The notes beneath the pieces are model-generated. The model was not told the origin of the DNA and did not search any database. It was given only the letters and a program-made list of their open reading frames with translations. Below, piece by piece: positions 21,938 to 64,000 of a stretch of 64,000 bases of DNA (its first letter is position 1; each line of letters starts with the position of its first letter). The DNA is from a virus. Its lineage: Duplodnaviria; Heunggongvirae; Uroviricota; Caudoviricetes. Both the position numbers and the translations under genes were made by a program. The stretch is from IMG/VR virus record IMGVR_UViG_2541047759_000001; one strand, written 5' to 3'.

Positions 21938-22120
21938 CGCGGGTTTTCGCTATTTATGAAAATTTTCCGGGAACCATGTCCGGTTTCTCTTCAAGTTAAC
22001 TATATGAAAAATAAAAAAAGAGGTCTTCTGTGAACCGGGCATGCACAAAAAATAGACATGTAAGCCGGACATGACCGGTTTTGTTGTGATTGTGAAGTGA
22101 GAGTTTTTGCGAGGTGAGGA

Positions 22121-49971: not shown

Positions 49972-51093
49972 TTACCCTTCGAAGAACCAGTATCCGCTAT
50001 TGACCAGCGCCGCGAGCATCGCGAGGAATGACGGATCTTCCAGCGCATCGCCAAAATTCTCCGCGGTCAGCGCAATGTTGCTGGCGAGTGCATCCAGTGC
50101 CGGACGGTGCGGGGAATCGATTTTCTCACCATTGGCATACACGTCGTCGCCAATGCGCAATACGCGCAGACCCCCCAGGCGCACCAGCACATCACCTTGT
50201 TTCAGCGCATCGTAGATTTCATCCGGCTGATAAGGCGGCTCTGGCGGCGCGATATCCAGTTCATGACGTGACTGGGATATAAACTCGCCAAACCATTGCT
50301 TAAAGTGTTCCGGCTGGTTGATCAATTCGAGCATCATCTCACGCAGTTTATCCATCTCTTGCGGCAGAACGTCCGCAGGATGAGCGCGAGGTGGAACATC
50401 AGGATCGCTGTAGTAGTTGCCGCCCAGTTCACGTTGCAGCACATAATCGGCAAATCCGCTAATCAGTTCCCGCGTATTCGGCGCGCGAAAACCCACGGAA
50501 TAGTTCATCGCATTTTCCAGCGCGTAGCCTTCATGCGGGAATCCTGGCGGAATATAAAGAATATCGCCAGGCTCCAGCTCTTCATCGATGATGGCTTCGA
50601 ACGGATCGACCTGTAACAGATCCGGGTGCGGGCAGTGCTGTTTCATTTGCAGCTTTTCACCCACTCGCCAGCGACGACGACCGGTACCCTGAATGATAAA
50701 CACGTCGTACTGATCGAGATGCGGGCCGACGCCGCCGCCCGGTACAGAAAAAGAGATCATCAGATCATCAATACGCCAGTCCGGTAGTTCACGGAACGGT
50801 CGCATTAGCGCAGCGGTCGGCTCATGCCAGTGGTTCACTGCTTGCACTAACAATGACCAGTTAGTTTCTCCGAGATGATCGTAGCTTTCGAATGGACCGT
50901 GGCTGACCTGCCATTTGCCATCCTGATGACTGACCAGTCGACTGTCGACTTCGCTTTCCATCGCCAGACCCGCCAACTCGTCTGGAGAGATTGGGTCAAT
51001 AAAATTATTAAAGCCGCGTTTTAACACCACCGGGCGTTTCTGCCAGTGACGTTCAAGAAAATCGGGCCAGTTAAGAGTGAGTTGGTATTCCAT
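49972..51093 (-). CDS. roxA: Ribosomal protein L16 arginine hydroxylase RoxA (YcfD), JmjC family
   Basis: 'MEYQLTLNWPDFLERHWQKRPVVLKRG' N-terminus; recognised E. coli YcfD. Confidence 0.9.
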   Translation of the reverse strand: MEYQLTLNWPDFLERHWQKRPVVLKRGFNNFIDPISPDELAGLAMESEVDSRLVSHQDGKWQVSHGPFESYDHLGETNWSLLVQAVNHWHEPTAALMRPFRELPDWRIDDLMISFSVPGGGVGPHLDQYDVFIIQGTGRRRWRVGEKLQMKQHCPHPDLLQVDPFEAIIDEELEPGDILYIPPGFPHEGYALENAMNYSVGFRAPNTRELISGFADYVLQRELGGNYYSDPDVPPRAHPADVLPQEMDKLREMMLELINQPEHFKQWFGEFISQSRHELDIAPPEPPYQPDEIYDALKQGDVLVRLGGLRVLRIGDDVYANGEKIDSPHRPALDALASNIALTAENFGDALEDPSFLAMLAALVNSGYWFFEG

Positions 51094-51284
51094 GTTAAGC
51101 ATCCACAGGCTGGTATCTGCAACCGATTATAACGGATGCTTAACGTAATGCGTGAAGTATGGACATATTTTATCAATTAGTGTTTTTTGCCGTTTCATAA
51201 TGTTTCAGGTTGTTCATTATGTTTTTGATTATAAACAGATTTGTGATTTTCCTTGTTCCAGCTTGTTTCACGTTGTAGCCCTTT

Positions 51285-51315
51285 GTGCAACGATCGGTGT
51301 AGTTAATGGTGTAGT
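51285..51315. repeat. attL direct repeat GTGCAACGATCGGTGTAGTTAATGGTGTAGT
   Basis: Identical 31-bp copy at 62437-62467; sits 26 bp upstream of the integrase gene. Confidence 0.8.
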
Positions 51316-51341
51316 TAATTGTGATGACCGGAATCAAAATT

Positions 51342-52571
51342 ATGAGCAGAGCACTTAACAAACTGAGCGATACACAGCTGAGGAAAATCAACGGCACACC
51401 CGCCCAAAAAACAGCCTTTCTTAATGACGGTGGAAACCTGAGCGTCAGGCATTCAACCAGTGGCCTTTTAACCTGGTATTTCACTTACAGGGCCGGAACG
51501 GGAAGGGGGGCACCACCGGAACGCATTAAGCTGGGAAATTATCCTGATCTGAGCCTGAAATCAGCCAGGGAAAAAGCCGCCCAGTGTCGCGCATGGCTGG
51601 CAGAGGGGAAAAATCCACGTCATGAAATGAATTACACCGTACAGGAAGCGTTAAAGCCGGTAACGGTTGGCGATGCGCTCACCTACTGGCTTGAGTCGTA
51701 CGCAAAGGAAAACCGCGTGGATTATGCCGCCCTGAAAAAGCGCCTTAATAATCACGTAATACAGCACATTGGTGCTATGCCGCTGGATAAATGCGAGCTA
51801 CGGCACTGGCTGGCCTGTTTTGACCAGGTGGCAAAGCGAACGCCTGTTACTGCCGGATTCTTGCTACAGACGTGCAAACAGGCGCTTAAGTTCTGCCGGA
51901 GGCGGCGCTATGCAATCAGCAACGTTCTTGATGATATGAGTGTGGCGGACGTTGGGAAAAAACCGGATATAAGCGAGCGCGTCTTAAGCACCAAAGAACT
52001 TGGCGAATTATTGCAGGCACTGGACAAAAAAATATTTTCCCCTTACTACGTCGCACTAATCCGCCTCCTGATTGTTTTCGGATGCCGGACGGTAGAACTG
52101 AGGTTATCGGAGATCAGCGAGTGGGATTTTACCGAAATGCTCTGGACCGTGCCGAAAGAACACAGCAAAACGAAGGTGGCAATATTCCGGCCCATACCGG
52201 AAGCAATACTGCCGTTCGTCACGCAGCTGGTGGAGCAGAACAGGCACACGGGCTTATTGCTGGGGGAAGTGAAACAGGAAACAAGCGTGTCGCAGTACGG
52301 CAGATTAGCGCACAGGAGGCTAAAACACCCTCACTGGTCACTGCATGACATCCGGCGCACCTTTACAACGATGCTGAACGATTTAGGCGTGGATCCTCAC
52401 GTCGTGGAGCAGCTTACAGGTCATCAGATGCCAGGGATGCAACGAGTCTATAACCATTCCCGTTATCTGGATGCGAAACGTGACGCGCTGGATATGTGGA
52501 CGGAGCGGTTAGGGATACTGGCGGGAACACATGAAAACGTAACCACATTGCCAATAGCCAGAGAAATATAA
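51342..52571 (+). CDS. int: Tyrosine integrase, P4-like family
   Basis: 409 aa; C-terminal 'HDIRRTF...GHQ...RVYNHSRY' catalytic region; adjacent to attL. Confidence 0.88.
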   Translation: MSRALNKLSDTQLRKINGTPAQKTAFLNDGGNLSVRHSTSGLLTWYFTYRAGTGRGAPPERIKLGNYPDLSLKSAREKAAQCRAWLAEGKNPRHEMNYTVQEALKPVTVGDALTYWLESYAKENRVDYAALKKRLNNHVIQHIGAMPLDKCELRHWLACFDQVAKRTPVTAGFLLQTCKQALKFCRRRRYAISNVLDDMSVADVGKKPDISERVLSTKELGELLQALDKKIFSPYYVALIRLLIVFGCRTVELRLSEISEWDFTEMLWTVPKEHSKTKVAIFRPIPEAILPFVTQLVEQNRHTGLLLGEVKQETSVSQYGRLAHRRLKHPHWSLHDIRRTFTTMLNDLGVDPHVVEQLTGHQMPGMQRVYNHSRYLDAKRDALDMWTERLGILAGTHENVTTLPIAREI

Positions 52572-52936
52572 TTTTTTTTGCGATTTTTCAGGATGCGGAC
52601 AACGTGAAACAACGAGACACAACGACGAACAACAAGGAACAAAATGGAACAACGGGTTAAAAATCAGCCATCGTAATAACCATTTGATTTTTATAGGTGT
52701 ACTGTTTTTTTATACACTGGCGAATCACTCTTAAAAATATGTAAAAAAGGCGTAAAAGTAAAATTTTATGCCTTTGCATCATAATGAATTAAAAGAGTTT
52801 TTATTCTCATTTCCCCTGCTTCTGTAAAACGACCGCCGCCAGTGTTTGCCATTCCACAAACACCCTGACACAATCCGACACAACCCAACCCAATAATCCA
52901 CCCAATGACTCTTTAAGAAACAACAAAGGGGGAATT

Positions 52937-53125
52937 GTGTTAAGCACAGATCGCTTTATACGTGAAAAAGAATGTCAGCAACTTACAGGCCTGAGCCGCT
53001 CATGTCGGTACCGCCTGGAAAAAGCCGGACAATTCCCATCACGGCGTAAGCTGGGCGGTCGTTTCGTTGGCTGGTCTTTATCCGAAGTTCTGGCATGGAA
53101 GGACAGCTGCGAGGCAGTTCACTAA
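52937..53125 (+). CDS. alpA: AlpA-family transcriptional regulator
   Basis: 62 aa; 'IREKECQQLTGLSRSCRYRLEKAGQFPSRRKLGGR...GWSLSEVLAW' typical of AlpA. Confidence 0.85.
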   Translation: MLSTDRFIREKECQQLTGLSRSCRYRLEKAGQFPSRRKLGGRFVGWSLSEVLAWKDSCEAVH

Positions 53126-53542
53126 TCAGGCTGGCGGCACACAGCCGCCACCCATCCACTAATACAGAGATCTAACCATGAATACTGGATATTCTCCCGA
53201 ACAAGGGCGGGGCTTCGTTCGTCCTGAAAAACAGAATCTGCAAAATTTTGCCGAAATTATTCCGGTTATTTCCGGCCTTACTGGCGGGAGTGAAACCAAT
53301 ATTGTTAACGCCAGAGCGTTGCAGATGTTTGATGATAAAAAGGGAGTAAATTTAACTTACACCCCTGACGGCAATCAGAATATGAGCATTATCTCTGAGT
53401 CAGGTTTCTACAAACTAATAAAAACAAAAAGCGCCCCGTTGCCGGAGCGCCTTTGTGAACAATTAACCTACTGCGCAAAAAATGAATCTGAGCAGTGGGA
53501 TTATATCAACCATGTGGAGAAGCGCCACAATTGCCGAATAAC

Positions 53543-53574
53543 GGGCAAAACAAAGGCCACCCGCTACGGTGGCC
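53543..53574 (-). terminator. Minus-strand intrinsic terminator ending the divergent regulator operon
   Basis: GGCCACC...GGTGGCC hairpin followed on the minus strand by TTTGTTTTGCCC. Confidence 0.6.
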
Positions 53575-53653
53575 CCTCGACACAAGCTACACGTTATCCC
53601 CAACGCATGAGCATTGCCAACAATGCCACATTTGCGGCTGGTGGGCAATGCAA

Positions 53654-53842
53654 TCAGTCAGGTTCAGTTCGTTGCCATACCTGCAATGAGCGCTTTTCCC
53701 TGTACTCTTTAAGGAATTGCTCAAGGGCAAAAGCACATGGCGCGAATCTTTCTGATTCATGCTCTATCTTTCTGCGCCGTCTTTTCCGTGCCGGTGATAA
53801 TGTTTTGGTCAATTCTTTATCGGTCATTGTGTTGTCCTGCAT
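53654..53842 (-). CDS. Small basic hypothetical protein
   Basis: 62-aa ORF downstream of the RHH gene on the minus strand; 'ARKRRRRK' basic patch. Confidence 0.4.
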   Translation of the reverse strand: MQDNTMTDKELTKTLSPARKRRRRKIEHESERFAPCAFALEQFLKEYREKRSLQVWQRTEPD

Positions 53843-53884
53843 AGCAATGCGCCGTAGTTACTCACACCACGGCGCTGGTGATGG

Positions 53885-54064
53885 TTACTCCTGCTCTTTG
53901 GCCTTGCGGCGCTGGCGGCGTTTGATCTCGCCTTGCATTGACGCAATGATGAATTGTGATGTGCTTTCGCCTGATTCTTTCACTGATTCCATGGCGTTTA
54001 CTATTTCGTGTGGTACACGAGCCTTTAGAGCTTGTGATTTTGCGTTTGTTGTACCCGTTGCCAT
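53885..54064 (-). CDS. Ribbon-helix-helix (Arc/CopG-like) DNA-binding protein
   Basis: 59 aa; 'LKARVPHEIVNAMESVKESGESTSQFIIASM' fits the RHH pattern; divergent from the rightward promoter. Confidence 0.6.
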   Translation of the reverse strand: MATGTTNAKSQALKARVPHEIVNAMESVKESGESTSQFIIASMQGEIKRRQRRKAKEQE

Positions 54065-54125
54065 TTCTATTCCTCTGTTGGATTGGTGGGGGACAGTATA
54101 CACAGAAAAAGCACAAATAAAACCC

Positions 54126-54166
54126 TTGACGTGGGCCACACCTAAAGCATATAGTGGGCCACACCT
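54126..54166 (+). promoter_or_regulatory. Rightward promoter with two GTGGGCCACACCT operator-like direct repeats
   Basis: TTGACG at 54126-54131, 18-bp spacer, TATAGT at 54150-54155; 13-bp repeats at 54131-54143 and 54154-54166. Confidence 0.55.
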
Positions 54167-54263
54167 TGAGATTATCAAGGTGCATAAATGCAAAGCCCCG
54201 CAAGTGTCGTTACCACTCGCAGGGCTTCTAACCACCAACGATAGCGAAAGTATCGAGGTAGCT

Positions 54264-54464
54264 ATGTTAAATCATACCACACACCCGCAAGGGCGGGACT
54301 CGCACAACCTGAATAAATACATCTGGCGTTTTATCGCCCTGAGCACGGCACAACCGCGCGTGATTACCATTGAGGCCACCAGCGAACAGGAAGCACGCCA
54401 GCAATCTCCGGCTGGCTGCGTGATGGTATTTGCTGCCCGTATTCGTCAGGGGGTAGGCTTATGA
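54264..54464 (+). CDS. Small hypothetical protein, first gene of the rightward satellite operon
   Basis: GAGGTAG RBS 5 nt upstream of ATG at 54264; 66 aa. Confidence 0.5.
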   Translation: MLNHTTHPQGRDSHNLNKYIWRFIALSTAQPRVITIEATSEQEARQQSPAGCVMVFAARIRQGVGL

Positions 54465-54691
54465 GCCAGGAAATCACACTACAACAGGCAGCAGAACGCG
54501 CCCACCAAATCGAAGTTATTTGCGCACTGGCAGAGGATTACCCTGGCATGATGACCGACAGCGAATCAGGGGCAATCATCGGCTTACTTAAACGCCTTAG
54601 CGGTGAGGTCTGCGTATTCCTGAGCGATGAACAGGAAAGAAGAACGCTTATTTCTAACGAAAAAAAATGCGGAGGGGTACATGTGCAATAA
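54461..54691 (+). CDS. Small hypothetical protein
   Basis: 76-aa ORF, start overlapping the upstream stop. Confidence 0.5.
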   Translation: MSQEITLQQAAERAHQIEVICALAEDYPGMMTDSESGAIIGLLKRLSGEVCVFLSDEQERRTLISNEKKCGGVHVQ

Positions 54692-55115
54692 AACCACACC
54701 GGACGCAGCCGCCGCCGCACTCACTACGCTGATGCACGCGCTTATTGATATTGAATGCACGGCAGAGCTTGCGCAGGGAGAAGAACAGAAAGACCGGACA
54801 CAGTTCGCCCTGGAATGTATCCGATACATCGCAACGCGGTCGCTGAATGACGCTAAAAATATTCTTGTTGCTGATTGTGAAAATGGGGGGGTTATGCGTG
54901 ATGATCGTTTTAATTCCCTGAAACAGGAATTTTCCGGCGTTCCTGATGATGCGGCTGATGCGCTTTCGTCAATGCCAGAGCTTATTAGAGCGGATTTTTT
55001 CTTACTTTCCACGAGAGAATATAAATCAACGGGGCTTGATGTACTGAATATCGCCGCCGATTATGCTGATTTCGTGACAGAGGTTATTTTAAGAAAAACG
55101 ACGGACGGGGATTAA
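54681..55115 (+). CDS. Hypothetical protein
   Basis: GGAGGGG RBS before ATG at 54681; 144 aa. Confidence 0.55.
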   Translation: MCNKTTPDAAAAALTTLMHALIDIECTAELAQGEEQKDRTQFALECIRYIATRSLNDAKNILVADCENGGVMRDDRFNSLKQEFSGVPDDAADALSSMPELIRADFFLLSTREYKSTGLDVLNIAADYADFVTEVILRKTTDGD

Positions 55116-55116
55116 T

Positions 55117-55350
55117 ATGCGTGATATTTACCACGAAACAATAGACCGCGCATTTCTTGCACTTTCTCACAGTGAAAATATGTTGGAAATATTGCGCATA
55201 TGTCTTGAAACGCTTGGAGATAATGAACGTGATAAACAGAAATCAAGGATTGTCACGGCATTAATAACGCTTCTTGAGCCTGTAATAAATGAGTTGCAGG
55301 AAATAGAGACATTACACGACCAGTATAAAGCGCCCCACACCGGAGAATAA
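55117..55350 (+). CDS. Small hypothetical protein
   Basis: 77-aa ORF starting 2 nt after the upstream stop. Confidence 0.5.
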   Translation: MRDIYHETIDRAFLALSHSENMLEILRICLETLGDNERDKQKSRIVTALITLLEPVINELQEIETLHDQYKAPHTGE

Positions 55351-55355
55351 AAATA

Positions 55356-55655
55356 ATGAAACTTAAATATTCTGGCTTAACTGCCAGTGGCAAAACTCGC
55401 ACTAAATTCATGCGCGGTGATATTTACCGCGATAAGTACGGCGGCACGGTAATGATTAAGGGCGTGGAGGAACGGCGCGTAACCTACCGTCGTGAAGGCT
55501 ACGAATATGATTGCGTGATGCCTGTTTATCAGTTCGACCGTGATTTTTCTCTTGTGCAGGCCGTACCGCGTAACGTGCCCACCAGCAGGGAGAAAGCACG
55601 CGCCAATATTCAGAAGATGAAAACCATGATTAAAGGATTCAGGGGTAAAAAATGA
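55356..55655 (+). CDS. Small basic hypothetical protein
   Basis: 99-aa ORF overlapping the primase start. Confidence 0.5.
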   Translation: MKLKYSGLTASGKTRTKFMRGDIYRDKYGGTVMIKGVEERRVTYRREGYEYDCVMPVYQFDRDFSLVQAVPRNVPTSREKARANIQKMKTMIKGFRGKK

Positions 55656-57406
55656 AACTGGCACCGAACGTAAAACAGCAGTCACGCGGCATAAAACACA
55701 AAGGAACAGAAGTCATTATTTTTGCGGGTAGTGATGCCTGGGCACACGCGAAACAATGGCAGGAACATGATGCGCGTATGGCCGGAGATAATGAGCCTCC
55801 TGTGTGGCTTGGGGAGCAGCAGTTATCAGAACTGGATAAGCTGCAAATTGTGCCGGAAGGCAGAAAATCCGTGCGCATATTCAGGGCCGGATATCTTGCG
55901 CCAGTAATGATAAAGGCGATTGGCCAGAAGCTGGCGGCGGCAGGCGTACAGGATGCAAATTTTTACCCTGATGGTATGCACGGTCAGAAGGTGGAGAACT
56001 GGCGCGAATATCTGGCCCGTGAGCGCCAGAATCTTTCTGATGGTCTGGTCATTGAGCTTCCGGTAAAGCAAAAGGCGCAACTTTCGCAGATGGCGGACAG
56101 TGAGCGCGCGCAGCTGCTTGCCGATCGCTTTGATGGCGTTTGCGTACATCCTGAAAGTGAAATCGTTCACGTATGGCGCGGCGGGGTATGGTGTCCGGTC
56201 AGCACAATGGAACTTAGCCGCGAAATGGTGGCGATCTATTCAGAGCACAGGGCCACTTTCAGCAAGCGCGTAATCAATAACGCCGTGGAAGCGTTAAAAG
56301 TTATTGCCGAACCAATGGGCGAGCCGTCCGGCGATTTGCTGCCGTTCGCCAATGGTGCGCTTGACCTGAAAACGGGGGGATTTTCCCCGCACACGCCGGA
56401 GAACTGGATCACCACGCACAACGGCATTGAGTACACGCCACCAGCACCAGGGGAGAACATCCGCGATAACGCGCCAAACTTTCATAAATGGCTTGAGCAC
56501 GCAGCCGGAAAAGACCCGCGCAAGATGATGCGTATATGTGCCGCGCTGTACATGATTATGGCGAACCGGTACGACTGGCAGATGTTTATTGAGGCCACCG
56601 GAGACGGCGGGAGCGGTAAAAGTACATTCACGCACATAGCCAGCCTTCTGGCAGGGAAACAGAACACGGTAAGCGCTGAAATGACATCGCTTGATGATGC
56701 TGGTGGACGTGCGCAGGTTGTCGGGAGTCGTCTTATCGTCCTGGCTGACCAGCCGAAATATACAGGCGAAGGAACGGGCATCAAGAAAATCACGGGCGGT
56801 GACCCCGTGGAAATTAACCCGAAATACGAAAAGCGTTTCACGGCTGTAATCAGGGCGGTGGTGCTGGCGACCAACAATAACCCGATGATATTCACCGAAC
56901 GGGCCGGAGGTGTGGCACGTCGTCGCGTGATTTTCCGTTTCGACAATATCGTCAGTGAGGCCGAAAAAGACAGGGAGCTACCGGAAAAGATCGCGGCTGA
57001 AATCCCTGTCATTATCCGCCGATTGCTGGCGAACTTTACCGACCCTGAGAAGGCACGGGCTTTACTACTGGAACAGCGTGACGGTGATGAAGCACTGGCA
57101 ATAAAGCAACAGACGGATCCGGTTATTGAGTTTTGCCAGTTCCTGAATTTTCTGGAGGAAGCGCGCGGCCTGATGATGGGGGGCGGTGGCGATTCAGTGA
57201 AGTACACGACCAGGAACAGCCTTTACCGCGTCTATCTGGCGTTTATGGCATACGCAGGCAGGAGCAAACCGCTAAACGTAAATGACTTTGGAAAGGCTAT
57301 GAAGCCTGCCGCAAAAGTTTACGGACATGAATATATTACGCGGAAAGTTAAGGGGGTAACGCAGACTAACGCAATAACAACAGACGAGTGCGACGCGTTT
57401 TTATAA
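55652..57406 (+). CDS. Primase-helicase (P4 alpha / D5-type, P-loop NTPase)
   Basis: 584 aa; Walker A 'GDGGSGKST'; N-terminal primase-like region; followed by the iteron origin. Confidence 0.85.
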   Translation: MKLAPNVKQQSRGIKHKGTEVIIFAGSDAWAHAKQWQEHDARMAGDNEPPVWLGEQQLSELDKLQIVPEGRKSVRIFRAGYLAPVMIKAIGQKLAAAGVQDANFYPDGMHGQKVENWREYLARERQNLSDGLVIELPVKQKAQLSQMADSERAQLLADRFDGVCVHPESEIVHVWRGGVWCPVSTMELSREMVAIYSEHRATFSKRVINNAVEALKVIAEPMGEPSGDLLPFANGALDLKTGGFSPHTPENWITTHNGIEYTPPAPGENIRDNAPNFHKWLEHAAGKDPRKMMRICAALYMIMANRYDWQMFIEATGDGGSGKSTFTHIASLLAGKQNTVSAEMTSLDDAGGRAQVVGSRLIVLADQPKYTGEGTGIKKITGGDPVEINPKYEKRFTAVIRAVVLATNNNPMIFTERAGGVARRRVIFRFDNIVSEAEKDRELPEKIAAEIPVIIRRLLANFTDPEKARALLLEQRDGDEALAIKQQTDPVIEFCQFLNFLEEARGLMMGGGGDSVKYTTRNSLYRVYLAFMAYAGRSKPLNVNDFGKAMKPAAKVYGHEYITRKVKGVTQTNAITTDECDAFL

Positions 57407-57419
57407 TTTTTTGTAATTG

Positions 57420-57650
57420 CTGTCTACCCTGTCTACCTGAGTAAAGAAAAATACATTTAATTCAGTGCATTAAGTTAGGTAGATAGCCTTTTTTTACTGT
57501 CTACCCACTATCTACCCTCTCTACCTGATTTTACCTGAATCAGACAGGGAGGTAGACACGGGGTAGATAGTGGATAAAAGCACTCTACCCCGCTGAAAGC
57601 CGCGCCATTACTGGCATGAGGGCCACTAAGGTAGATAAGGTAGACAAGGG
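57420..57650. repeat. Satellite origin of replication: about 11 copies of the GGTAGA(C/T) iteron in both orientations
   Basis: Copies of GTCTACC / GGTAGAC / GGTAGAT immediately downstream of the primase-helicase gene. Confidence 0.75.
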
Positions 57651-57694
57651 GAGGCACAACTCAAAACTTTTTAAACGAGGGGGTAAAAATAAAT

Positions 57695-57973
57695 ATGCAC
57701 ACTTCAGGGAAATTTAATAAATCACTCAAAAAACGCAGAGACAGAACAGAACCGAAATATCGCGCGTTAGACATGACAGAGCACGCTTTAAAGGTGGCAA
57801 TCAGAACGATAGACCGCCACGCGGGGGAAGGATACGCGAAAGCACATCCCGAACTGATAAGCGCATTCATGACCACGACGGCGGCAAATTTTGCCACGCT
57901 GACAGAGCGGGAGATTGCCGAAGCGGAACAGGTAACAACCATCAACGTTAAAACCGGAGAGGTGGAATCATGA
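57695..57973 (+). CDS. Hypothetical protein
   Basis: GAGGGGG RBS upstream; 92 aa. Confidence 0.45.
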   Translation: MHTSGKFNKSLKKRRDRTEPKYRALDMTEHALKVAIRTIDRHAGEGYAKAHPELISAFMTTTAANFATLTEREIAEAEQVTTINVKTGEVES

Positions 57974-58392
57974 CAGCACAGATAGCAGCTTACGGGCGGC
58001 TGGTGGACGACCCGCAGGTAAAACAGACCAGCAAGGGCACACCGATGACGCTGGCGCGTATGGCGGTCCCCCTTCCGTGCAGCCAGGCAGATGACGGAAC
58101 GGCGACGATGTGGTTATCCGTCCTGGCATTTGGCAGACAGGCCGAAGCACTGGAAAGGCACCGCAAGGGTGAACTCCTGAGCGTGGCGGGTAACATGCAG
58201 ATCAGCCAGTGGACTGGGCAGAACGGAGAAACGCGGCAGGGCTGGCAGGTTATCGCAGACAGTGTAATCAGTGCGCGAACGGCGCGACTGGGCGGCAAAA
58301 AAGGTCAACAGGGCCAGGCTACTGACGCGCTGAACAGGGCAAAACAACAGGCGGGGAATGATGATCCGTACGGGGATAACATACCGTTTTAA
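57970..58392 (+). CDS. ssb: Single-stranded DNA-binding protein
   Basis: OB-fold N-terminus, Gly/Gln-rich linker, acidic C-terminal tip 'DDPYGDNIPF'. Confidence 0.85.
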   Translation: MTAQIAAYGRLVDDPQVKQTSKGTPMTLARMAVPLPCSQADDGTATMWLSVLAFGRQAEALERHRKGELLSVAGNMQISQWTGQNGETRQGWQVIADSVISARTARLGGKKGQQGQATDALNRAKQQAGNDDPYGDNIPF

Positions 58393-58408
58393 GCGACGAG
58401 AGACAGAA

Positions 58409-58430
58409 GCCGGAGCAATCCGGCTTTTTT
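58409..58430 (+). terminator. Intrinsic terminator after ssb
   Basis: GCCGGAGCAATCCGGC hairpin followed by TTTTTT. Confidence 0.75.
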
Positions 58431-58807
58431 ACGGGGCCTCCTGGCGGGGTGGGCCTGAACACGGGGCGGGAAGCGCGGAAAAAAGCGCATTTTTGTGATT
58501 TTATCGTCATCATCATCATGAGCGTAATTTATTGTTTTTAATTGTTTTGATGCAAAAAAGATGATGGTTGTGGTTAATTTTTGTTCGACATCTTTGCAGG
58601 CAGATAAAAAAGCCCGATAAGGTCAGAGGTGGCTTATCGGGCTTTTGCATATGAGGCTTTTTGGTGCACTGACACACATGATCGGGATAATCATTTCATA
58701 ATTTGCAACACAACTCAATATCATTGCACAAAATGCAATCCTGATTATAATCAGAGCTGGATGAACATCCAGTTATGATTTTTTAAGTCAAAGAGGAATT
58801 TCTTACT

Positions 58808-59014
58808 ATGGCTGAAGAGAAAAAAGGCGGTATTTCGGTGTACATAAGCCCCGACATCGTGAAGGCGCTCAAGGAACGCCACCAGCAGAACGTAAAAGCA
58901 GGCATTGCGGCAGGACTTGATCCGCTGGCGATGGTTGAGCCGTCAACAGGCTGGCAGGTACGCGCCTATTTACGCGCGGCGCTGGGTATGAATCAGGTTC
59001 ACGGGGGTGAATAA
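58808..59014 (+). CDS. Small hypothetical protein preceding the satellite capsid gene
   Basis: AAGAGGAA RBS; 68 aa; stop overlaps the capsid gene start. Confidence 0.5.
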   Translation: MAEEKKGGISVYISPDIVKALKERHQQNVKAGIAAGLDPLAMVEPSTGWQVRAYLRAALGMNQVHGGE

Positions 59015-60069
59015 TGACAGTAAAAGCAATGGCACTTAACACTAACCAGCTTTTTGCGTACCTGAATCGCGGGGATATTGCGGAATTTAAATTCAGTCCG
59101 CTGTTTACCACGCTGTTTTTCCCGAACGTGGCGACATTCAGCACGCAAAACATCATGCTGGATACCCTGGACATTGAAGAAGTCACCATGTCGGCGTTTT
59201 GTTCGCCTATGGTGGGTAGCCAGGTTCAGCGCGATAAAGGGTACGAAACCAGCACGATTAAACCTGGCTACATGAAGCCAAAGCACGAAATCGATCCAAC
59301 GAAAACCATCATGCGCATGGCTGGAGAAGATCCGGCACAGCTTAACGACCCTACCTATCGCCGTATGCGCCTGATTACTGGCAATATGCGCCGCCAGATA
59401 AACGCCATAAAAGCGCGCGTGGAATGGCTGGCGGTAAATGCGGTAACGACCGGAAAAAACATCATTGAAGGCGAAGGCATAGAGCGCTATGAAATCGACT
59501 GGAAGATACCGGAAAAAAACATCATAGAGCAGGCCGACGGGAAAAAATGGTCAGAGCAGGACAAAGAAACCCACGATCCAATCTATGATATCGAACTATA
59601 CGCCGATCAGGCTGGTTGCCCCGCAAACGTCATGATTATGGGCGCTGAGGTATGGCGAACGTTACGCAGCTTTAAAAAATTCCGTGAGCTGTACGATCTT
59701 TCCCGTGGTTCAGAGTCCGCCGCAGAGCTGGCCTGTAAAAACCTGGGCGAAGTGGTGAGCTTTAAAGGCTATCTGGGCGATATTGCCCTTATCGTCTATT
59801 CCGGCAAATACACTGACAGCGACGGCACAGAAAAATATTTCCTTGAGCCTGATTTGCTTGTCCTGGGCAACACCAACAATAAAGGGCTGGTGGCCTATGG
59901 TGCGATTATGGATCAGGACGCAGTAAGAACGGGCGCAACGCAAAACATGTTTTACCCGAAAAACTGGATTGAGGACGGCGATCCGGCGATTGAGTACGTG
60001 CAGACGCACAGCGCACCGCAGCCGGTTCCGGCAGATATTCGCAAATTTGTTACCGTCAAAATTGGTTAA
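59014..60069 (+). CDS. Major capsid protein, divergent lambda E homologue
   Basis: Shared blocks with the prophage E: 'EDPAQLNDPxYRRxRxIT', 'NIIEQADGKKWSEQD', 'VVSFKGYxGDxAxxV', 'DGTEK...LVLGNT'. Confidence 0.85.
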   Translation: MTVKAMALNTNQLFAYLNRGDIAEFKFSPLFTTLFFPNVATFSTQNIMLDTLDIEEVTMSAFCSPMVGSQVQRDKGYETSTIKPGYMKPKHEIDPTKTIMRMAGEDPAQLNDPTYRRMRLITGNMRRQINAIKARVEWLAVNAVTTGKNIIEGEGIERYEIDWKIPEKNIIEQADGKKWSEQDKETHDPIYDIELYADQAGCPANVMIMGAEVWRTLRSFKKFRELYDLSRGSESAAELACKNLGEVVSFKGYLGDIALIVYSGKYTDSDGTEKYFLEPDLLVLGNTNNKGLVAYGAIMDQDAVRTGATQNMFYPKNWIEDGDPAIEYVQTHSAPQPVPADIRKFVTVKIG

Positions 60070-60080
60070 CGGGGGATTCT

Positions 60081-60416
60081 ATGGACACTCCATACATTGA
60101 GTTATTTGCAGGCAGTCAGCAGGTCGCCACGACGCTGGTACATTTTGCCGCTGATGCTGGCGTTATTCAGGAATTTACCCCGCTGATGCTGGCGGACAAT
60201 GGCGAGTTTAAGCCGTGGGATGGTAAGGAATCTGGCAAGGCTGTTTATCTGACCTCGTACCCTGTGGACACGTCAAAGCAGAAATCAGCACAGTGTTACA
60301 AGACGGGGATATTCAATATTGCCGCCGTTAACTGGCCTGAGAGCGTCGACACCGATGCGAAAAAATGCGCCGCCTTTGCGGGTTCCGGCGTATCCGTTCA
60401 GCCGCTGGCCCGATAA
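60081..60416 (+). CDS. Head decoration protein, divergent lambda D homologue
   Basis: 111 aa immediately after the E-like gene; 'VNWPESVDTDAKKCAAFAGS' resembles the D C-terminus. Confidence 0.7.
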   Translation: MDTPYIELFAGSQQVATTLVHFAADAGVIQEFTPLMLADNGEFKPWDGKESGKAVYLTSYPVDTSKQKSAQCYKTGIFNIAAVNWPESVDTDAKKCAAFAGSGVSVQPLAR

Positions 60417-60428
60417 GCAGGGGGAACG

Positions 60429-60842
60429 ATGGCAACGAATGAAAGCATCATGACGCTACCGCTGGCGAGTAAATTTAAAGCCGAAGCGCGGGCAATGGCT
60501 GACAGAGGTTTATCAACCTATGAGGCCGTATATCAACTAAACAAACTGGAAGAGCAGGACAAGCCGCGCGCTGATGCGATTATGGCGCTTCATGAGCATA
60601 AAGACTATCAGCCGCTGTTACGTGCAATGGCAAACGTGCCATGTATTAGCGTCGATAATGCTCGTGAAATCCTGAACATGACCATAGAGCAGGAGCGCCC
60701 AAAGGTTGCACCAGAGCTTACCGCAGCCTTTGAAAACTTTATGGACATGCACAGCCCGCAAGCCGTATCAGCTGGCATGGCATACGATGGCAGAAACCAG
60801 GGCGATGACGGCGACATCGATCGCATACTGAAAACCATCTGA
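60429..60842 (+). CDS. Scaffold-like protein related to the C-terminal (Nu3-like) domain of the prophage C gene
   Basis: 'ADAIMALHEHKDYQPLLRAMANVPCISVDNAREILNM' and 'FENFMDMHSPQAV' parallel the C-protein repeats and its C-terminus. Confidence 0.6.
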   Translation: MATNESIMTLPLASKFKAEARAMADRGLSTYEAVYQLNKLEEQDKPRADAIMALHEHKDYQPLLRAMANVPCISVDNAREILNMTIEQERPKVAPELTAAFENFMDMHSPQAVSAGMAYDGRNQGDDGDIDRILKTI

Positions 60843-60848
60843 GACAAG

Positions 60849-60870
60849 GCCGGAGAAATCCGGCTTTTTT
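60849..60870 (+). terminator. Intrinsic terminator after the scaffold-like gene
   Basis: GCCGGAGAAATCCGGC hairpin followed by TTTTTT. Confidence 0.75.
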
Positions 60871-60902
60871 ACGGGTCCTTCCTGGAATTATGGCCCGTTA
60901 CG

Positions 60903-60914
60903 GGGCGGCGACCT
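60903..60914 (+). other. Satellite cos copy 1: cosN GGGCGGCGACCT with cosQ-like upstream and partial cosB
   Basis: 'GGGTCCTTCCTGG...GTTACGGGGCGGCGACCTCGCGGGTTTTCGCTATTTATGA' is near-identical to the prophage cos at 21926; no ATGTCCGG repeats downstream. Confidence 0.8.
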
Positions 60915-61003
60915 CGCGGGTTTTCGCTATTTATGACGTTTTTCCGTGAAGGTGACACCACCACCACTTGATTAATATTTAACCATGCAGTTAAGGTAAC
61001 ATT

Positions 61004-61438
61004 ATGATTGATAAAGCTTGTTTTGTAAGTCAGCAGGAAATAGCTGAACATTTCAAGGTTAACAGAACCACTATTCGCGCATGGACCAAACAGGGGATGC
61101 CGTATCTTAATGCGGATCGCGGAAAGTCTGGCGGTTATCACATCGGGCATACATTGCTTTGGTCTTCAGGTAAAAGCCGTCTTGAGGCCATCAGATATCA
61201 CGTAGAAACCAGTGCGCTGGAAAAAATTATGTTTGCCAGGCTGCTTTCATCTGAGCGTGACGAGTACTCCAGTGAAGAAACAGAACATCGATTTGATGAA
61301 GGTTTGCAGATTTACGGCTATTCACCGGAAGATGTGAGCAAGGCACGAAATAAAATGGCTGGCTTTCTGGCTGGGTGGCGTCATGCCGTAAGCGTTCGCC
61401 GTGCCAGCATGGAGCAATCAGCCGATACAGAACAGTAA
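61004..61438 (+). CDS. Nu1-like small terminase or packaging-redirection protein with N-terminal HTH
   Basis: AAGG RBS; 'QQEIAEHFKVNRTTIRAWTKQGMPY' parallels the lambda Nu1 N-terminal HTH; lies between two inverted cos copies. Confidence 0.6.
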   Translation: MIDKACFVSQQEIAEHFKVNRTTIRAWTKQGMPYLNADRGKSGGYHIGHTLLWSSGKSRLEAIRYHVETSALEKIMFARLLSSERDEYSSEETEHRFDEGLQIYGYSPEDVSKARNKMAGFLAGWRHAVSVRRASMEQSADTEQ

Positions 61439-61641
61439 AGCCGATAACTTGTTAATCACTCGCAGCAATGCATGTGATTTGTGCACACTTTCGGTTAACT
61501 GGTTCGATGTCCGGTTTTAGTGTCTGTTTTTTGCGCATGTCCGGTTCATGGAAAGCATGTTTTTATATTTTTCATATGGTTAACTTGCAGAGAAACCGGA
61601 CATGGATCCCGAAAAATTTTCATAAATAGTGAAAACGCGCG

Positions 61642-61653
61642 AGGTCGCCGCCC
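61642..61653 (-). other. Satellite cos copy 2, inverted: cosN plus full cosB-like region with three ATGTCCGG repeats
   Basis: Reverse complement of 61530-61690 matches the prophage cos from cosQ through 'CATGTCCGGTTTCTCT' and beyond. Confidence 0.75.
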
Positions 61654-61717
61654 CGTAACGGGCCATAATTCCAGGAAGGACCCGACGACACCAGACTATC
61701 AGAACGATGGGGGCACA

Positions 61718-61999
61718 ATGACAGAAGCCGAAATACTGCGATTAATCCGCCGCGTTGCCGGAATCAGCCAGCAGGCCGACGAACAGACCACGCAGCCGGA
61801 CAGCGTGACCGCCGAAAATTATGTTCGTGTGGTTGCTGAGGTGATTCGCCGTAATGGTATCCAGCTTAATGATGTGGATATGCGCAACATACGGATCCGC
61901 GTTCTTGAAATGCTGGCCTACAATCGCCGCGTGGCACTGTATCGGGAAACGGAGAAAATTACGTACCACTGGAAGAAGCCGGAGCGGTTGCGGCGGTAA
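61718..61999 (+). CDS. Hypothetical protein
   Basis: 93-aa ORF starting at ATG 61718 just after cos copy 2. Confidence 0.45.
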   Translation: MTEAEILRLIRRVAGISQQADEQTTQPDSVTAENYVRVVAEVIRRNGIQLNDVDMRNIRIRVLEMLAYNRRVALYRETEKITYHWKKPERLRR

Positions 62000-62170
62000 C
62001 TGGTTGATATTTTCGAAATTCGCCAGCGGCGAACATCGGGGAAACCAGCCTAACCCGTTGATATTTTCGGGAACCTCAAATTGAAGAGGTCGGAAACATA
62101 ACCCGTCATATTCTGGATGCTGATAATTACCACGCAGCCCATTAAGGCCTAACCCGTTGATTCTTCCACA
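62000..62170. repeat. Four direct repeats of about 19 bp (TAACCCGTTGATATTTTCG-like) near attR
   Basis: Copies at about 62001, 62050, 62098 and 62149; followed by palindromes at 62174-62227. Confidence 0.6.
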
Positions 62171-62436
62171 ATCCCCCATTGGGGGAGGCTGGGCGGCCTG
62201 CTGTGGGCTTTTCCACCATTGGTGGAAAGGCGCACATCTGGATCATCATTACGGTGATCAAGGGTATGTAAAACCCACCAGCCTGATTGACATTTAACCG
62301 GAAAAAAGCCAGGTAGCCCCGTTATGGGGATCCCCATATCGACATTAACGCCCCTCATGAATTGGCGCGCTTCCCCCTGGAAAGATGACCCGCCTGTATA
62401 TTTCTTGTGTCTATTTGTTCCACGTTGTTTCATACA

Positions 62437-62467
62437 GTGCAACGATCGGTGTAGTTAATGGTGTAGT
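62437..62467. repeat. attR direct repeat GTGCAACGATCGGTGTAGTTAATGGTGTAGT
   Basis: Identical to 51285-51315; weaker similarity extends about 25 bp further upstream. Confidence 0.8.
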
Positions 62468-62553
62468 CAATTTGCGATTTTTAGCACTTTTTGCAGTGCA
62501 AATCATTTAATTAAATCAATGGCTTGCCTTGATGTAGTGATAAAAGGACATAT

Positions 62554-64000
62554 TTATTCATCTTTCGGTGCAGAATGCTGGCGACCAAAAATCACTTCCA
62601 TCCGCGCACCGCCCAGCATGCTCTCTCCGGCGACGATTTTACCCTCATATTGCTCGGTGATTTCGCGGGCTACCGCCAGCCCCACACCTTGCCCAGGGCG
62701 TAAAGTATCAACCCGTTGACCACGGTCGAAAATGACCTCTCGCTTGCTTAATGGAATACCGGGGCCATCATCCTCGACCACAATATAGAGATGCTCGTCG
62801 GTTTGCCTTGCAGAAATTTCGACAAATTCGAGGCAATATTTACAGGCATTATCCAGCACATTACCCATCACCTCGACAAAATCGTTCTGCTCACCAACAA
62901 AGCTGATCTCTGGCGAAATATCGAGAGAGATATTGACCCCTTTGCGTTGATACACTTTGTTCAGCGCCGAGGTGAGATTGTCCAACAGTGGGGCGACCGG
63001 ATGCAGCTCGCGGCTAAGCAATGTCCCGCCGCGCATACTGGCACGATGCAGGTAGTAGCCAATTTGCTGTGAAATGCGGCTGATTTGCTCCAGCATTACC
63101 GGCTCAGCATCACTGACGCTCATCTTCTCACTACGCAGAGAACGCAGCGTACTTTGCAGCACCGCCAGTGGCGTTTTCAGACTATGGGTCAGGTCGGTGA
63201 GCGTCGTACGATATTTGTCGTAACGTTCGCGTTCACTTTTTAACAGTCGGTTCAGGTTTCGTACCAGACTGGTCAGTTCTCGCGTTGTGGCTGGATTGAG
63301 CAATTCACGGTTATGTTCTTCCAGTTCGCGGACTTCTTTTGCCAGGGCTTCGATGGGGCGTAAACTCCACCAGGCGGCGACCCACAGCAGCGGGATCACT
63401 AACAGCAGATTGGCTGAGAGCACATAGATAAACCAGCTCCAGACCATATAGGAACTTTTTAGCTCCACCGGAATGGTATCCACCACCACAATGGTTAACT
63501 TTGGCATCCGCGATGTTGCCGGGTAGACGTTTACCGCCACCGAGTGGGTCATCTCCGCGTCGTCATCATCTTCCCGCACTTCCTGCAACTGTTGCTGTAT
63601 CGAATGATCTCCACTCAGCAAGAGGCTGGTATCGTTAACATCCGCTTCAATTTCATGAAAACCATTCGATTTCAGCCAGTCAGGCTGGATCATCTTCATC
63701 AGCCAGGGCACGTCACGTTGCGCCCATAAAAGCTGCCCGTTCTCATCATAAATTAGTGTCATCGTGGGGCTTTGCTTGTCGATATTTTCGGGTAACTCGA
63801 CATGCAACTTATTGTTTTCCCACTTCGCAAGGGTATAGAACAGATTGCTCTCGCCACGTAACAGCCGAAACGTGGTTTTATCGAAACTGACGCTATAACC
63901 GATCAGCGCAACCATTCCGTAGGCAAGCGAAAGCACCAATACTACTGCTGCCGTTGCTAACAGAAAACGTACCCGCAGCGAGAGCGGGAAAAAAAGATGC
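62554..64000 (-). CDS. phoQ: Sensor histidine kinase PhoQ, 5' end cut by the window edge
   Basis: Recognised E. coli PhoQ; ORF runs to the last base of the window with the start codon just outside. Confidence 0.9.

What the first reader, a model, noticed from the sequence alone, without database searches (positions are those of the whole stretch)
62000..62340. Ordered direct repeats and palindromes in the satellite arm next to attR
Four copies of a roughly 19-bp repeat at about 50-bp spacing are followed by palindromes (CCCCCATTGGGGG; TTCCACCATTGGTGGAA). They could be integrase arm-type sites, terminase-binding sites or a structured RNA.
Basis: seen in the sequence. Interest (0 to 1): 0.4.

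Follow-up and report, generated by a model that had tools for sequence, protein, structure and literature searches.

The report
IHF-box plus palindrome repeats in EcCICFT073
The repeats are real and belong to an apparently undescribed family of small modules (a box matching the binding motif of the host DNA-bending protein IHF, plus a short palindrome) that sits after the last gene of E. coli phage satellites, and they are probably not integrase or terminase sites.

Summary
Observation confirmed and extended. The window's satellite is an 11.4-kb island; the 571 bases compared at its right end, which span the finding, are identical to the model island EcCICFT073. The four repeats start at 61997, 62051, 62099 (degenerate) and 62150. 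Each is a module: a 19-nt box TAAC-N4-TGAT(A/T)TT..CG, then a sequence-variable palindrome centred about 30 nt from the box start.

Related islands carry 0 to at least 7 such modules directly after the same last gene. The conserved box positions match the IHF consensus: 79 hits in one orientation against 1 in the other in 23 kb of arms, where shuffles give about 1.

The integrase arm-site reading is not supported. The crossover is GGACATATTT at 62546-62555, 380-550 bp away. A 12-bp doubled motif flanks it, as published for related islands. Boxes occur with three different doubled motifs and are missing from arms that keep the same one. The terminase reading is not supported either: cosB lies elsewhere, and islands with their own terminase also have the boxes.

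Best reading (0.42): an accessory array of IHF-binding boxes and palindromes, resembling chromosomal BIME-1/RIP elements in layout. A structured 3'UTR RNA stays open. Binding and function are untested.

The parts
61718..61999 (+). Last gene of the island (93 aa, phrog_1561, function unknown). Its TAA stop is the first three bases of box 1.
   Evidence: It is the last gene in both Rpp-type and cf-type PICIs. The C-terminus WK(K/T)PERLRR is almost invariant down to 42% identity. The AF2 model is low confidence (pLDDT 65, three helices).
61997..62033 (+). Unit 1: box TAACTGGTTGATATTTTCG (61997-62015) plus palindrome TTCGCCAGCGGCGAA (62019-62033).
   Evidence: The reverse complement TATCAACCAGTTA is an exact match to WATCAANNNNTTR.
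62051..62089 (+). Unit 2: box TAACCCGTTGATATTTTCG (62051-62069) plus imperfect palindrome CCTCAAATTGAAGAGG (62074-62089). It reads CCTCAAATTGAGG in L002/L009.
62099..62131 (+). Unit 3: degenerate box TAACCCGTCATATTCTGG (62099-62116) plus GCTGATAATTACC (62119-62131), a decayed copy of the GGTCATAATGACC palindrome seen in other arms.
   Evidence: It does not match the IHF consensus.
62150..62186 (+). Unit 4: box TAACCCGTTGATTCTTCCA (62150-62168) plus palindrome TCCCCCATTGGGGGA (62172-62186).
62197..62241 (.). Fifth palindrome module. The perfect core is TTTCCACCATTGGTGGAAA (62210-62228), inside a 45-nt imperfect inverted repeat. It has no box.
   Evidence: (I2, D4). A variant of the same module is present in L014.
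62275..62282 (-). Chi octamer (CCACCAGC on the + strand). It marks the start of the constant part of the arm.
   Evidence: It is present at the equivalent position in most related arms.
62405..62471 (+). P-arm recombination module: three phased TTGTKYC repeats (62405-62431), GTGCAACGATC, and the doubled motif GGTGTAGTTAAT GGTGTAGTCAAT (62448-62471). These are the likely real integrase and directionality-factor sites.
   Evidence: (D7). The layout matches the doubled motif of HE-PICIs (PMC10111431).
62514..62526 (+). Single IHF-consensus site AATCAATGGCTTG between the doubled motif and the crossover. It is the likely intasome IHF site.
   Evidence: Conserved in L003, L004 and L005.
62546..62555 (.). 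attR crossover block GGACATATTT, overlapping the phoQ stop codon (62554-62556 on the - strand).
   Evidence: (alignment with the empty K-12 roxA-phoQ site)
51161..51170 (.). attL crossover block GGACATATTT.
51253..51319 (+). P'-arm copy of the recombination module: TTGT repeats, GTGCAACGATC and the doubled motif GGTGTAGTTAAT x2 (51296-51319), ending just before int (51321-52571).

Best explanation
The finding is a four-unit array, one unit decayed, of a small module found in enterobacterial phage-inducible chromosomal islands. Each module is a 19-nt box whose conserved positions match the IHF recognition sequence (WATCAR-N4-TTR read on the - strand). It is followed at a fixed distance by a short palindrome whose sequence varies from unit to unit. 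The array fills the non-coding gap between the stop codon of the last late-operon gene and the attP recombination module. Proposed mechanism (inferred, not shown): IHF binds each box and bends the DNA sharply, so the array forms a compact nucleoprotein structure at the 3' end of the operon. The palindromes may act as hairpins in read-through transcripts or as flexible DNA between the bends. Together they would act as an accessory boundary element between the strongly transcribed operon and attP/int, much as chromosomal BIME-1/RIP elements (palindromic units flanking an IHF-binding linker) sit at operon 3' ends. The array is dispensable for the core integrase reaction. Units are gained and lost, presumably by unequal recombination. 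Shown: the anatomy, conservation pattern, distribution and copy-number variation, and the dissociation from integrase-type motifs and from packaging type. Inferred: IHF binding, and any role as an insulator or architectural element.
For: (1) Three of the four window boxes are exact WATCAANNNNTTR matches. They are 3 of only 7 exact matches in 64 kb. (2) In 42 distinct related right arms (23.2 kb) the relaxed consensus occurs 79 times in the box orientation and once in the other. Shuffles give about 1 per strand. In 173 kb of sequence upstream of the arrays in the same loci there are only 3 and 12 hits. (3) The box logo over 73 distinct units is high at T1 A2 A3, T9 G10 A11 and T15, and low at positions 5-8, which largely correspond to the N4 of the consensus. 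(4) In locus L087, whose last-gene protein is only 42% identical, five units keep YAA-N4-TTGATW and the adjacent palindrome. They lose C4 and the 3' part of the box. (5) The palindrome centre lies 29.5-30.5 nt from the box start in 64 of 76 distinct units. Stem sequences differ between units (CCTCAA, GCGCAA, TTCGCC, TCCCCCA and others) while staying complementary. (6) The first box always overlaps the stop codon of the last gene, in both Rpp-type and cf-type islands and at the phoQ, clpS and tqsA sites. (7) BIME-1 has REPs flanking an IHF-binding linker. BIMEs vary in copy number between loci and sit at operon 3' ends (PMC3333891).
Against: IHF binding was not tested, and no ChIP data for a strain carrying this island were found. 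Only 20 of 40 distinct boxes fit the relaxed consensus. The class II boxes (TGAACTTAAAG and TGAGATTAAAG) do not. C4 and G19 are conserved but the IHF motif does not explain them. G19 pairs with position 41 as part of an outer helix. Box spacing (43-55 bp) shows no clear helical phasing. The units in the counts are homologous, so the counts are not independent events. Some islands lack the array altogether, so any function is accessory. The proposed insulator role rests on analogy only.
Confidence: 0.42

Rival explanations
1. Structured RNA. The array is the 3'UTR of the late operon, read on the + strand. Each unit is an AU-rich single-stranded box followed by an extended hairpin (outer helix, internal loop, inner helix). 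The hairpins would stabilise the mRNA against 3' exonucleases, stop or process read-through before attP/int, or yield small RNAs.
For: The array begins at the stop codon of a + strand gene, and all units are co-oriented with it. Complementarity extends beyond the core palindrome: 38% Watson-Crick at distances 7-16 from the centre against 17-29% in shifted registers. In register, G-T pairs outnumber A-C pairs 108 to 38, which favours the + strand. Unit folds are slightly more stable on the + strand (45 against 29 units, Wilcoxon p=0.027). The 451-nt arm folds with z=-2.4 on + and -1.5 on -.
Against: No Rfam family matched at E<=1. No U-tract follows the hairpins on either strand, so they are not intrinsic terminators. 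The predicted minimum-energy fold of the commonest 48-nt unit replaces the conserved palindrome with another pairing. Several palindromes are perfect right through the centre (TGCAAATTTGCA, TGGGGATCCCCA, CCTCAAtTTGAGG), which a hairpin loop does not require. The G-T excess is partly a composition effect, because shifted registers show it too. The outer helix is not kept in the distant locus L087. An RNA role does not explain why the conserved box positions are those of the IHF motif.
Confidence: 0.25
2. Inert duplication debris or stuffer. Units arose by repeated duplication of the gene's 3' end plus a downstream hairpin during recombination between islands. They persist as filler, possibly adjusting genome length for cos packaging.
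For: The 14 nt ending in each internal TAAC (GTCGGCGCGGTAAC) resemble the end of the last gene (GTTGCGGCGGTAAC), 11 of 14 identical. Copy number runs from 0 to at least 7 among close relatives. Unit 3 in the window is decayed. Arms are mosaics of shuffled short modules.
Against: Divergence among units is strongly non-uniform, from 1.7-1.9 bits at TAAC, TGA and T15 down to 0.2-0.7 bits at positions 5-8 and 16-17. Palindromy is kept despite complete turnover of the stem sequence. The motif and the geometry persist in a lineage whose neighbouring protein is 42% identical.
Confidence: 0.12
3. Binding sites for an island-encoded protein: integrase arm domain, AlpA (excisionase/activator) or the 93-aa last-gene product. 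The array would be part of the excision/integration complex or a regulatory operator.
For: The integrase has an Arm-DNA-bind_3 domain. The array lies in the P arm in the broad sense. The first box abuts the 93-aa gene, whose C-terminus is basic and invariant.
Against: The array is 380-550 bp from the crossover and on one arm only. The same boxes occur with three different doubled arm motifs. They are absent from arms that keep the GGTGTAGT motif and the 93-aa gene (L015, L026, L031, L034, L063, L064). The phased TTGT repeats and doubled motifs already supply a plausible set of Int and directionality-factor sites on both arms.
Confidence: 0.08
4. Packaging signal: extra binding sites for the Rpp-TerS complex or helper terminase.
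For: The array lies within 1.1-1.3 kb of cos1 and 350-530 bp from cos2.
Against: Published work places the determinant of Rpp-TerS specificity in cosB of cos1, between cosN and rpp, with a proposed R3 at about bp 48-65 of the left end (PMC6739421; PMC9026076). The array is on the cosQ side of the inverted cos2. cf-PICIs with an unrelated P27-type TerS, TerL and HNH have the same array. No box-like sequence occurs near either cosN.
Confidence: 0.03

Closest known systems
BIME-1 / RIP (RIB) elements of the E. coli chromosome: REP palindromic units flanking an L linker that carries an IHF site
   Same: A mosaic of short palindromes alternating with a conserved IHF-consensus segment. Extragenic, at the 3' end of a transcription unit. 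BIME copy number differs between loci and strains. A clear single function is lacking (PMC3333891).
   Different: No sequence similarity was seen to REP y, z1 or z2 as recalled from memory. The palindromes are shorter (9-23 nt against 20-40 nt) and differ in sequence from unit to unit. In the typical E. coli units no GTAG tetranucleotide sits at the hairpin foot (a GTAG does follow some hairpins in L087 and L011). All units are co-oriented rather than alternating. The family is confined to PICI right arms, with 1-7 places per genome in about 19% of E. coli genomes, not hundreds of copies genome-wide.
IHF sites of lambda-type attP arms (H1, H2, H') and of lambda cosB (I1)
   Same: The same consensus. 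Location in a mobile element between the late genes and attP. IHF is an established cofactor for both reactions (PMC9026076; established knowledge for attP).
   Different: Those sites are single, fixed in number and position, and lie within about 150 bp of the core or cosN. Here there are 0 to at least 7 tandem copies 380 bp or more from the crossover. A separate single site at 62514-62526 already occupies the expected intasome position.
Doubled arm motif of HE-PICIs (tgTGTATTGCa x2, 81 bp upstream and 132 bp downstream of the attP centre)
   Same: The window has an analogous 12-bp tandem motif, GGTGTAGTYAAT x2, about 90 bp upstream and about 141 bp downstream of its crossover.
   Different: This is a different feature from the finding.
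Tandem-repeat RNA arrays (type III antitoxins such as ToxI, multi-hairpin sponge RNAs such as CsrB)
   Same: Tandem units of about 36-50 nt, each with a hairpin.
   Different: Unit length is not constant (43-55 nt). There is no downstream toxin gene. No GGA loop motif is present. There was no Rfam hit. This comparison rests on my recollection of those systems.

Membership tests
Integrase arm-type sites (heterobivalent tyrosine recombinases) | Fixed number and position relative to the crossover, usually on both arms and within about 150-250 bp | tested here: not met
   The array is 380-550 bp from the crossover at 62546-62555 and on one arm only. There are 0 to at least 7 copies among arms sharing the same att-proximal module.
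Integrase arm-type sites (heterobivalent tyrosine recombinases) | Sequence co-varies with integrase specificity | tested here: not met
   The same boxes occur with the GGTGTAGTYAAT, TTTRGTTATACG and AAATGTGTATAG doubled motifs. L002 and L025 share four boxes but have different motifs. L015 and L064 have the GGTGTAGT motif but no boxes.
Integrase arm-type sites (heterobivalent tyrosine recombinases) | Bound by the N-terminal arm-binding domain of Int | not testable with these tools
   Needs footprinting or EMSA.
cosB / terminase small-subunit R sites | Immediately adjacent to cosN on the side from which packaging starts, at critical spacing | tested here: not met
   cos1 cosN is at 60903-60914 and rpp starts at bp 102 (61004). 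cos2 is inverted at 61642-61653. The array is more than 1 kb from cos1 and on the cosQ side of cos2.
cosB / terminase small-subunit R sites | Specific to one terminase or Rpp type | tested here: not met
   Present both in Rpp-type islands and in cf-PICIs with P27-family TerS, TerL and HNH.
IHF binding site | Match to WATCAANNNNTTR (relaxed form WATCARNNNNTTR) | tested here: met
   Three of four window boxes match exactly. There are 79 relaxed hits in one orientation against 1 in the other in 42 arms. Twenty of 40 distinct boxes fit; class II boxes do not.
IHF binding site | Specific binding and bending by IHF | not testable with these tools
   No ChIP data for CFT073-type strains were found.
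REP / BIME elements | Imperfect palindromes of 20-40 nt of type y, z1 or z2 with a conserved GTAG at the foot, in alternating orientation | tested here: not met
   The palindromes are 9-23 nt, heterogeneous and all co-oriented with their boxes. The typical E. coli units lack a GTAG at the foot, although a GTAG follows some hairpins in L087 and L011. Definition taken from PMC3333891. No direct sequence comparison with REP consensus sequences was run.
REP / BIME elements | High copy number dispersed through the chromosome | tested here: not met
   1-7 places per genome in 1042 of 5426 E. coli genomes, intergenic in every listed row but one. Every locus inspected lies in a PICI right arm.
PICI replication origin (two iteron sets flanking an AT-rich region 3' of pri-rep) | Located immediately 3' of the initiator gene | tested here: not met
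   pri is at 55652-57406 and the array is 4.6 kb away. The ori position and its function in EcCICFT073 come from PMC6092414.
Known RNA families / intrinsic terminators | Rfam covariance-model hit, or a GC-rich hairpin followed by a U-tract | tested here: not met
   No Rfam hit at E<=1 in 50500-64000 apart from a chance miRNA match elsewhere. The only terminator-like site near the array is a weak one at 61985-62002.

The most novel reading that the evidence does not exclude
The modules act as RNA. The late-operon transcript would carry a tandem array of AU-rich box plus extended hairpin units. These would be processed into a family of satellite-encoded small RNAs or protein decoys, for example titrating a helper-phage or host RNA-binding factor. 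The different hairpins in one array would give breadth against different helpers. That would be a new, RNA-based layer of satellite-helper interaction in the model island EcCICFT073.
Probability: 0.08. Interest if true: 0.75.

Novelty: new variant of a known kind. Interest (0 to 1): 0.42.

Why it matters
The compared right arm of the island in the window, which includes the array, is base-for-base the same as in EcCICFT073, the experimental model for Gram-negative phage satellites. Every prediction here can therefore be tested with existing strains. If IHF binds the array, it adds a host-factor-dependent architectural element to the satellite life cycle, lying between the late operon and attP/int. 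It would also be a compact, naturally variable system (0 to at least 7 units) for asking what IHF-site/palindrome mosaics such as BIME-1/RIP do, which remains unresolved for the chromosome. The work also corrects the map of the island: the true crossover at the phoQ stop codon, and the doubled motifs as the likely integrase arm sites.

Tried and rejected
- **Coding on the - strand:** rejected. The 97-aa ORF at 62149-62442 is not conserved in frame across 40 arms.
- **Replication origin:** rejected from the published ori position 3' of pri.
- **CRISPR-like array or type III antitoxin array:** rejected. Unit length is not constant, no partner gene is present and Rfam gave nothing.
- **Intrinsic terminators on either strand:** rejected, because no U-tracts follow the hairpins.
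- **In-frame stop codons:** the window spacings of 54, 48 and 51 nt are all multiples of 3. Other loci have spacings of 43-55 that are not, so this was dropped.
- **Covariation between box positions 5-8 and the unit tail:** only two variants support it (CTGG/CCAG and CCG/CGG), so it is not convincing.
- **lambda nut-like boxA/boxB, Fis, CRP, PhoP, DnaA, hix and operator decoys:** compared from memory only. None fits.
- **P2 cox-box:** class II boxes contain TTAAAGCAA, close to the cox-box TTAAAGNCA as I recall it. The window has no class II unit. This is left as a lead.
- **Structure of the 93-aa protein:** pLDDT 65, three helices. This is too poor for a fold search, so none was run.
- **Homologues of the 93-aa gene in phage genomes:** none.
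- **The array in phages and plasmids:** the phage search gave only short weak matches (36 nt, E=3e-3) and the plasmid search found the array in four E. coli records.
- **Full-text search for four diagnostic sequence strings:** no paper.
- **PICI papers read:** none mentions these repeats, IHF sites or hairpins in this region.

Full report
**What is at the coordinates**

It also contains both palindromes: TCCCCCATTGGGGGA at 62172-62186 and TTTCCACCATTGGTGGAAA at 62210-62228.
- The 19-mer with up to three mismatches occurs only here in the 64-kb window, twice, against 0.01 expected. The third copy is degenerate and has an indel.
The real repeat unit is therefore a box plus a palindrome.
- The first box overlaps the TAA stop of a 93-aa gene (61718-61999).

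**Context**

- The surroundings are an 11.4-kb phage-inducible chromosomal island. In order it carries:
  - int (51321-52571)
  - alpA (52937-53125)
  - a D5-type primase (55652-57406)
  - ssb
  - lambda gpE-like and gpD-like head genes
  - an Rpp/TerS-like gene (61004-61438)
  - the 93-aa gene
- Two lambda-type cosN copies flank rpp in inverted orientation, at 60903-60914 and 61642-61653.
- The 571 bases compared across the right arm (61990-62560) are identical to EcCICFT073 in strain CFT073, and the neighbouring proteins carry the same accessions. This is the prototype Gram-negative PICI.
- Published work on that island places the origin 3' of pri (PMC6092414). It places the functional cos1 upstream of rpp, with the rpp start at about bp 102 (PMC9026076). 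The window matches that spacing exactly.

**Where attR really is**

- Alignment with the empty roxA-phoQ site of K-12 shows the crossover block is GG(A/G)CATATTT. It lies at 51161-51170 and at 62546-62555, the latter overlapping the phoQ stop codon.
- The 31-bp identity I first took for the core (GTGCAACGATCGGTGTAGTTAATGGTGTAGT) lies inside the island on both sides.
- It contains a 12-bp tandem doubled motif, GGTGTAGTYAAT x2. One copy is about 90 bp upstream of the crossover (62448-62471) and one about 141 bp downstream (51296-51319).
- Each copy is preceded by three phased TTGT-type repeats.
- A doubled motif with nearly the same geometry (81 and 132 bp) was reported for helper-embedded PICIs and proposed as the integrase arm site (PMC10111431).
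- A single IHF-consensus site at 62514-62526 lies between the motif and the crossover and is conserved in relatives.
- The recombination machinery is thus accounted for within about 150 bp of the crossover. The finding lies 380-550 bp away.

**Comparative anatomy**

- The 93-aa gene is the last gene of both Rpp-type islands and capsid-forming PICIs that encode their own TerS, TerL and HNH. This holds at the phoQ, clpS and tqsA sites.
- From 80 IMG/VR loci plus E. coli genomes I obtained 42 distinct downstream arms.
- Most begin at the stop codon with the same module: TAAC-N4-TGA(T)(A)TT-NN-CG, then 2-4 nt, then a palindrome of 4-10 bp arms.
- Typical unit lengths are 48 or 54 nt, and arms carry from 1 to at least 7 units.
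- At the same phoQ site the window has 4 units, a cf-PICI has 7 and an O157:H7 island has 2-3.
- Six arms (L015, L026, L031, L032, L034, L063) have no units yet keep the same constant arm, Chi site and doubled motif.
- The family occurs in 1042 of 5426 complete E. coli genomes, at 1-7 places each. It is intergenic in every listed row but one, and there is essentially no match in phages.

**What is conserved**

- Over 73 distinct units the box logo is high at T1 A2 A3 C4, T9 G10 A11, T15 and G19. It is low at positions 5-8 and 16-17.
- Read on the other strand, the conserved part is WATCAR-N4-TTR, the IHF recognition consensus. That consensus is established knowledge (Craig and Nash; Friedman).
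- Three of the four window boxes match the strict form, out of only seven strict matches in the window.
- In the 42 arms (23.2 kb) the relaxed form occurs 79 times in the box orientation and once in the other. Shuffles give about one.
- In 173 kb of sequence upstream of the arrays in the same loci there are 3 and 12 hits.
- In locus L087, whose 93-aa homologue is only 42% identical, five units keep YAA-N4-TTGATW and the neighbouring palindrome. They lose C4 and the box's 3' half.
- Caveats:
  - The units are homologous, so the counts are not independent events.
  - Only 20 of 40 distinct boxes fit the consensus. A second class (TGAACTTAAAG or TGAGATTAAAG) does not.

**The palindromes**

- The palindrome centre lies 29.5-30.5 nt from the box start in 64 of 76 distinct units.
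- Positions 3-6 from the centre are 93-100% complementary, with three or four pair types at each position.
- Stem sequences are unrelated between units (CCTCAA, GCGCAA, TTCGCC, TCCCCCA, TTCCACAG and others).
- Many share a CA-(A/T)n-TG centre.
- Several are perfect through the centre, which suits double-stranded symmetry better than a hairpin loop.
- Against that, complementarity continues weakly to distances 7-16 (38% against 17-29% in shifted registers). In register, G-T pairs exceed A-C pairs 108 to 38.
- Unit folds are slightly more stable on the + strand. This is what a + strand RNA or single-stranded DNA hairpin would show.
- The asymmetry is partly compositional, and it is not seen in L087.
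- No Rfam family matches, no U-tracts follow the hairpins, and no - strand ORF is conserved.

- Integrase arm sites are not supported. The reasons are position, one-arm location, variable number, and a double dissociation.
  - The same boxes occur with three different doubled motifs. L002 and L025 share four boxes but differ in motif.
  - The GGTGTAGT motif occurs without boxes.
- Terminase sites are not supported. The array is on the wrong side of cos2, more than 1 kb from cos1, and present in islands that use an unrelated terminase.
- Structured RNA is not excluded.

**Best explanation and its limits**

I read the array as an accessory mosaic of IHF-binding boxes and palindromes at the 3' end of the late operon. 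Its closest known analogue in architecture is BIME-1/RIP, where REP palindromes flank an IHF-binding linker at operon 3' ends and copy number varies (PMC3333891). It is not a member of that family. The palindromes are shorter, heterogeneous and co-oriented, the typical units lack GTAG at the hairpin foot, and the family is confined to PICI arms.

IHF binding, bending and any insulating or architectural role are inferences. The class II boxes, the conserved C4 and G19, and the outer helix are not explained by IHF alone. A dual DNA and RNA role, as proposed for REPs, is plausible.

**Literature**

Six PICI papers and a full-text search for four diagnostic sequence strings gave no description of these repeats. 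Within the searchable library the module appears undescribed.

**Verdict**

This is a real, non-random feature that recurs widely among related islands. The most likely identity is an IHF-box/palindrome array, a new variant of a known kind of element. It is of moderate interest because it sits in the model satellite and can be tested directly.

Noticed in passing
window 51161-51170 and 62546-62555: The true attL/attR crossover block is GGACATATTT, at the phoQ stop codon. The island spans about 51161-62555, and the compared right-arm segment (61990-62560) is identical to EcCICFT073 of strain CFT073.
   Followed up: yes
window 51296-51319 and 62448-62471: A 12-bp tandem doubled motif, GGTGTAGTYAAT x2, lies on both sides of attP, about 141 bp downstream and about 90 bp upstream of the crossover. 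Each copy is preceded by three phased TTGT-type repeats and GTGCAACGATC. This mirrors the doubled motif reported for HE-PICIs and is the likely integrase arm site. Other islands use TTTRGTTATACG, AAATGTGTATAG or GGTATCCTAKA instead.
   Followed up: partly
window 52596-52656: Six copies of (A/G)ACAA(C/A) at 10-11-bp phase lie between int and alpA, with an IHF-consensus match at 52677-52689 (- strand). This may be a regulatory or protein-binding array. ACACAA-rich repeats also lie upstream of alpA at 52860-52900.
   Followed up: no
window 60903-60914 and 61642-61653: Two lambda-type cosN sequences in inverted orientation flank rpp, corresponding to cos1 and cos2 of EcCICFT073. The rpp start is bp 102 from the cos1 left end. 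The cos2 side has three copies of ATGTCCGGTT (61507, 61537, and an inverted copy at 61594-61604).
   Followed up: partly
window 62275-62282: A Chi octamer on the - strand marks the start of the constant arm and is conserved in most related arms. It is oriented to be recognised by RecBCD travelling rightward from the cos1 left end, before it reaches attP and int. Other arms (L002, L052, L053, L083, L087) have + strand Chi just after a palindrome. The island has 10 Chi sites in 11.4 kb.
   Followed up: partly
window 21926-26309: The lambda cohesive-end sequence GGGCGGCGACCT occurs again at 21926. It is followed by ORFs of 169, 661 and 530 aa, sizes that fit Nu1, A and portal (domains not checked). 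A lambdoid prophage, a possible helper, seems to lie about 29 kb from the satellite in the same window.
   Followed up: no
window 61718-61999; loci L002-L005, L087, L091: The 93-aa last gene (phrog_1561) is shared by Rpp-type and capsid-forming PICIs. Its C-terminus WK(K/T)PERLRR is almost invariant down to 42% identity. The last 30 nt differ by only 1-2 synonymous changes in L087 and L091. The 14 nt ending in each internal TAAC resemble the gene's 3' end.
   Followed up: partly
L015, L026, L031, L034, L064, L014 (first 70-110 nt after the stop codon): There is an alternative module in place of, or after, the box units: four or five GTGAC repeats at 10-11-bp phase. In L015 and L014 these are followed by a hairpin with a T-run (GACGTG(A/G)CCAACGTCATTTTTT) that looks like a true terminator.
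   Followed up: no
L033 positions about 154-180 after the stop codon: One IMG/VR locus joins box 4 directly to the phoQ 3' end (…TTCTTTCG|GACATATTTATTCATC), deleting the whole constant arm and attR. This is a decayed, immobilised island.
   Followed up: no
class II units, e.g. L003 145-196 and L004 (237-288 nt after the stop codon): Boxes of the form TGA(A/G)(C/A)TTAAAGCAA do not fit the IHF consensus. They contain TTAAAGCAA, one mismatch from the P2 Cox-box TTAAAGNCA as I recall it. The window has no such unit.
   Followed up: no
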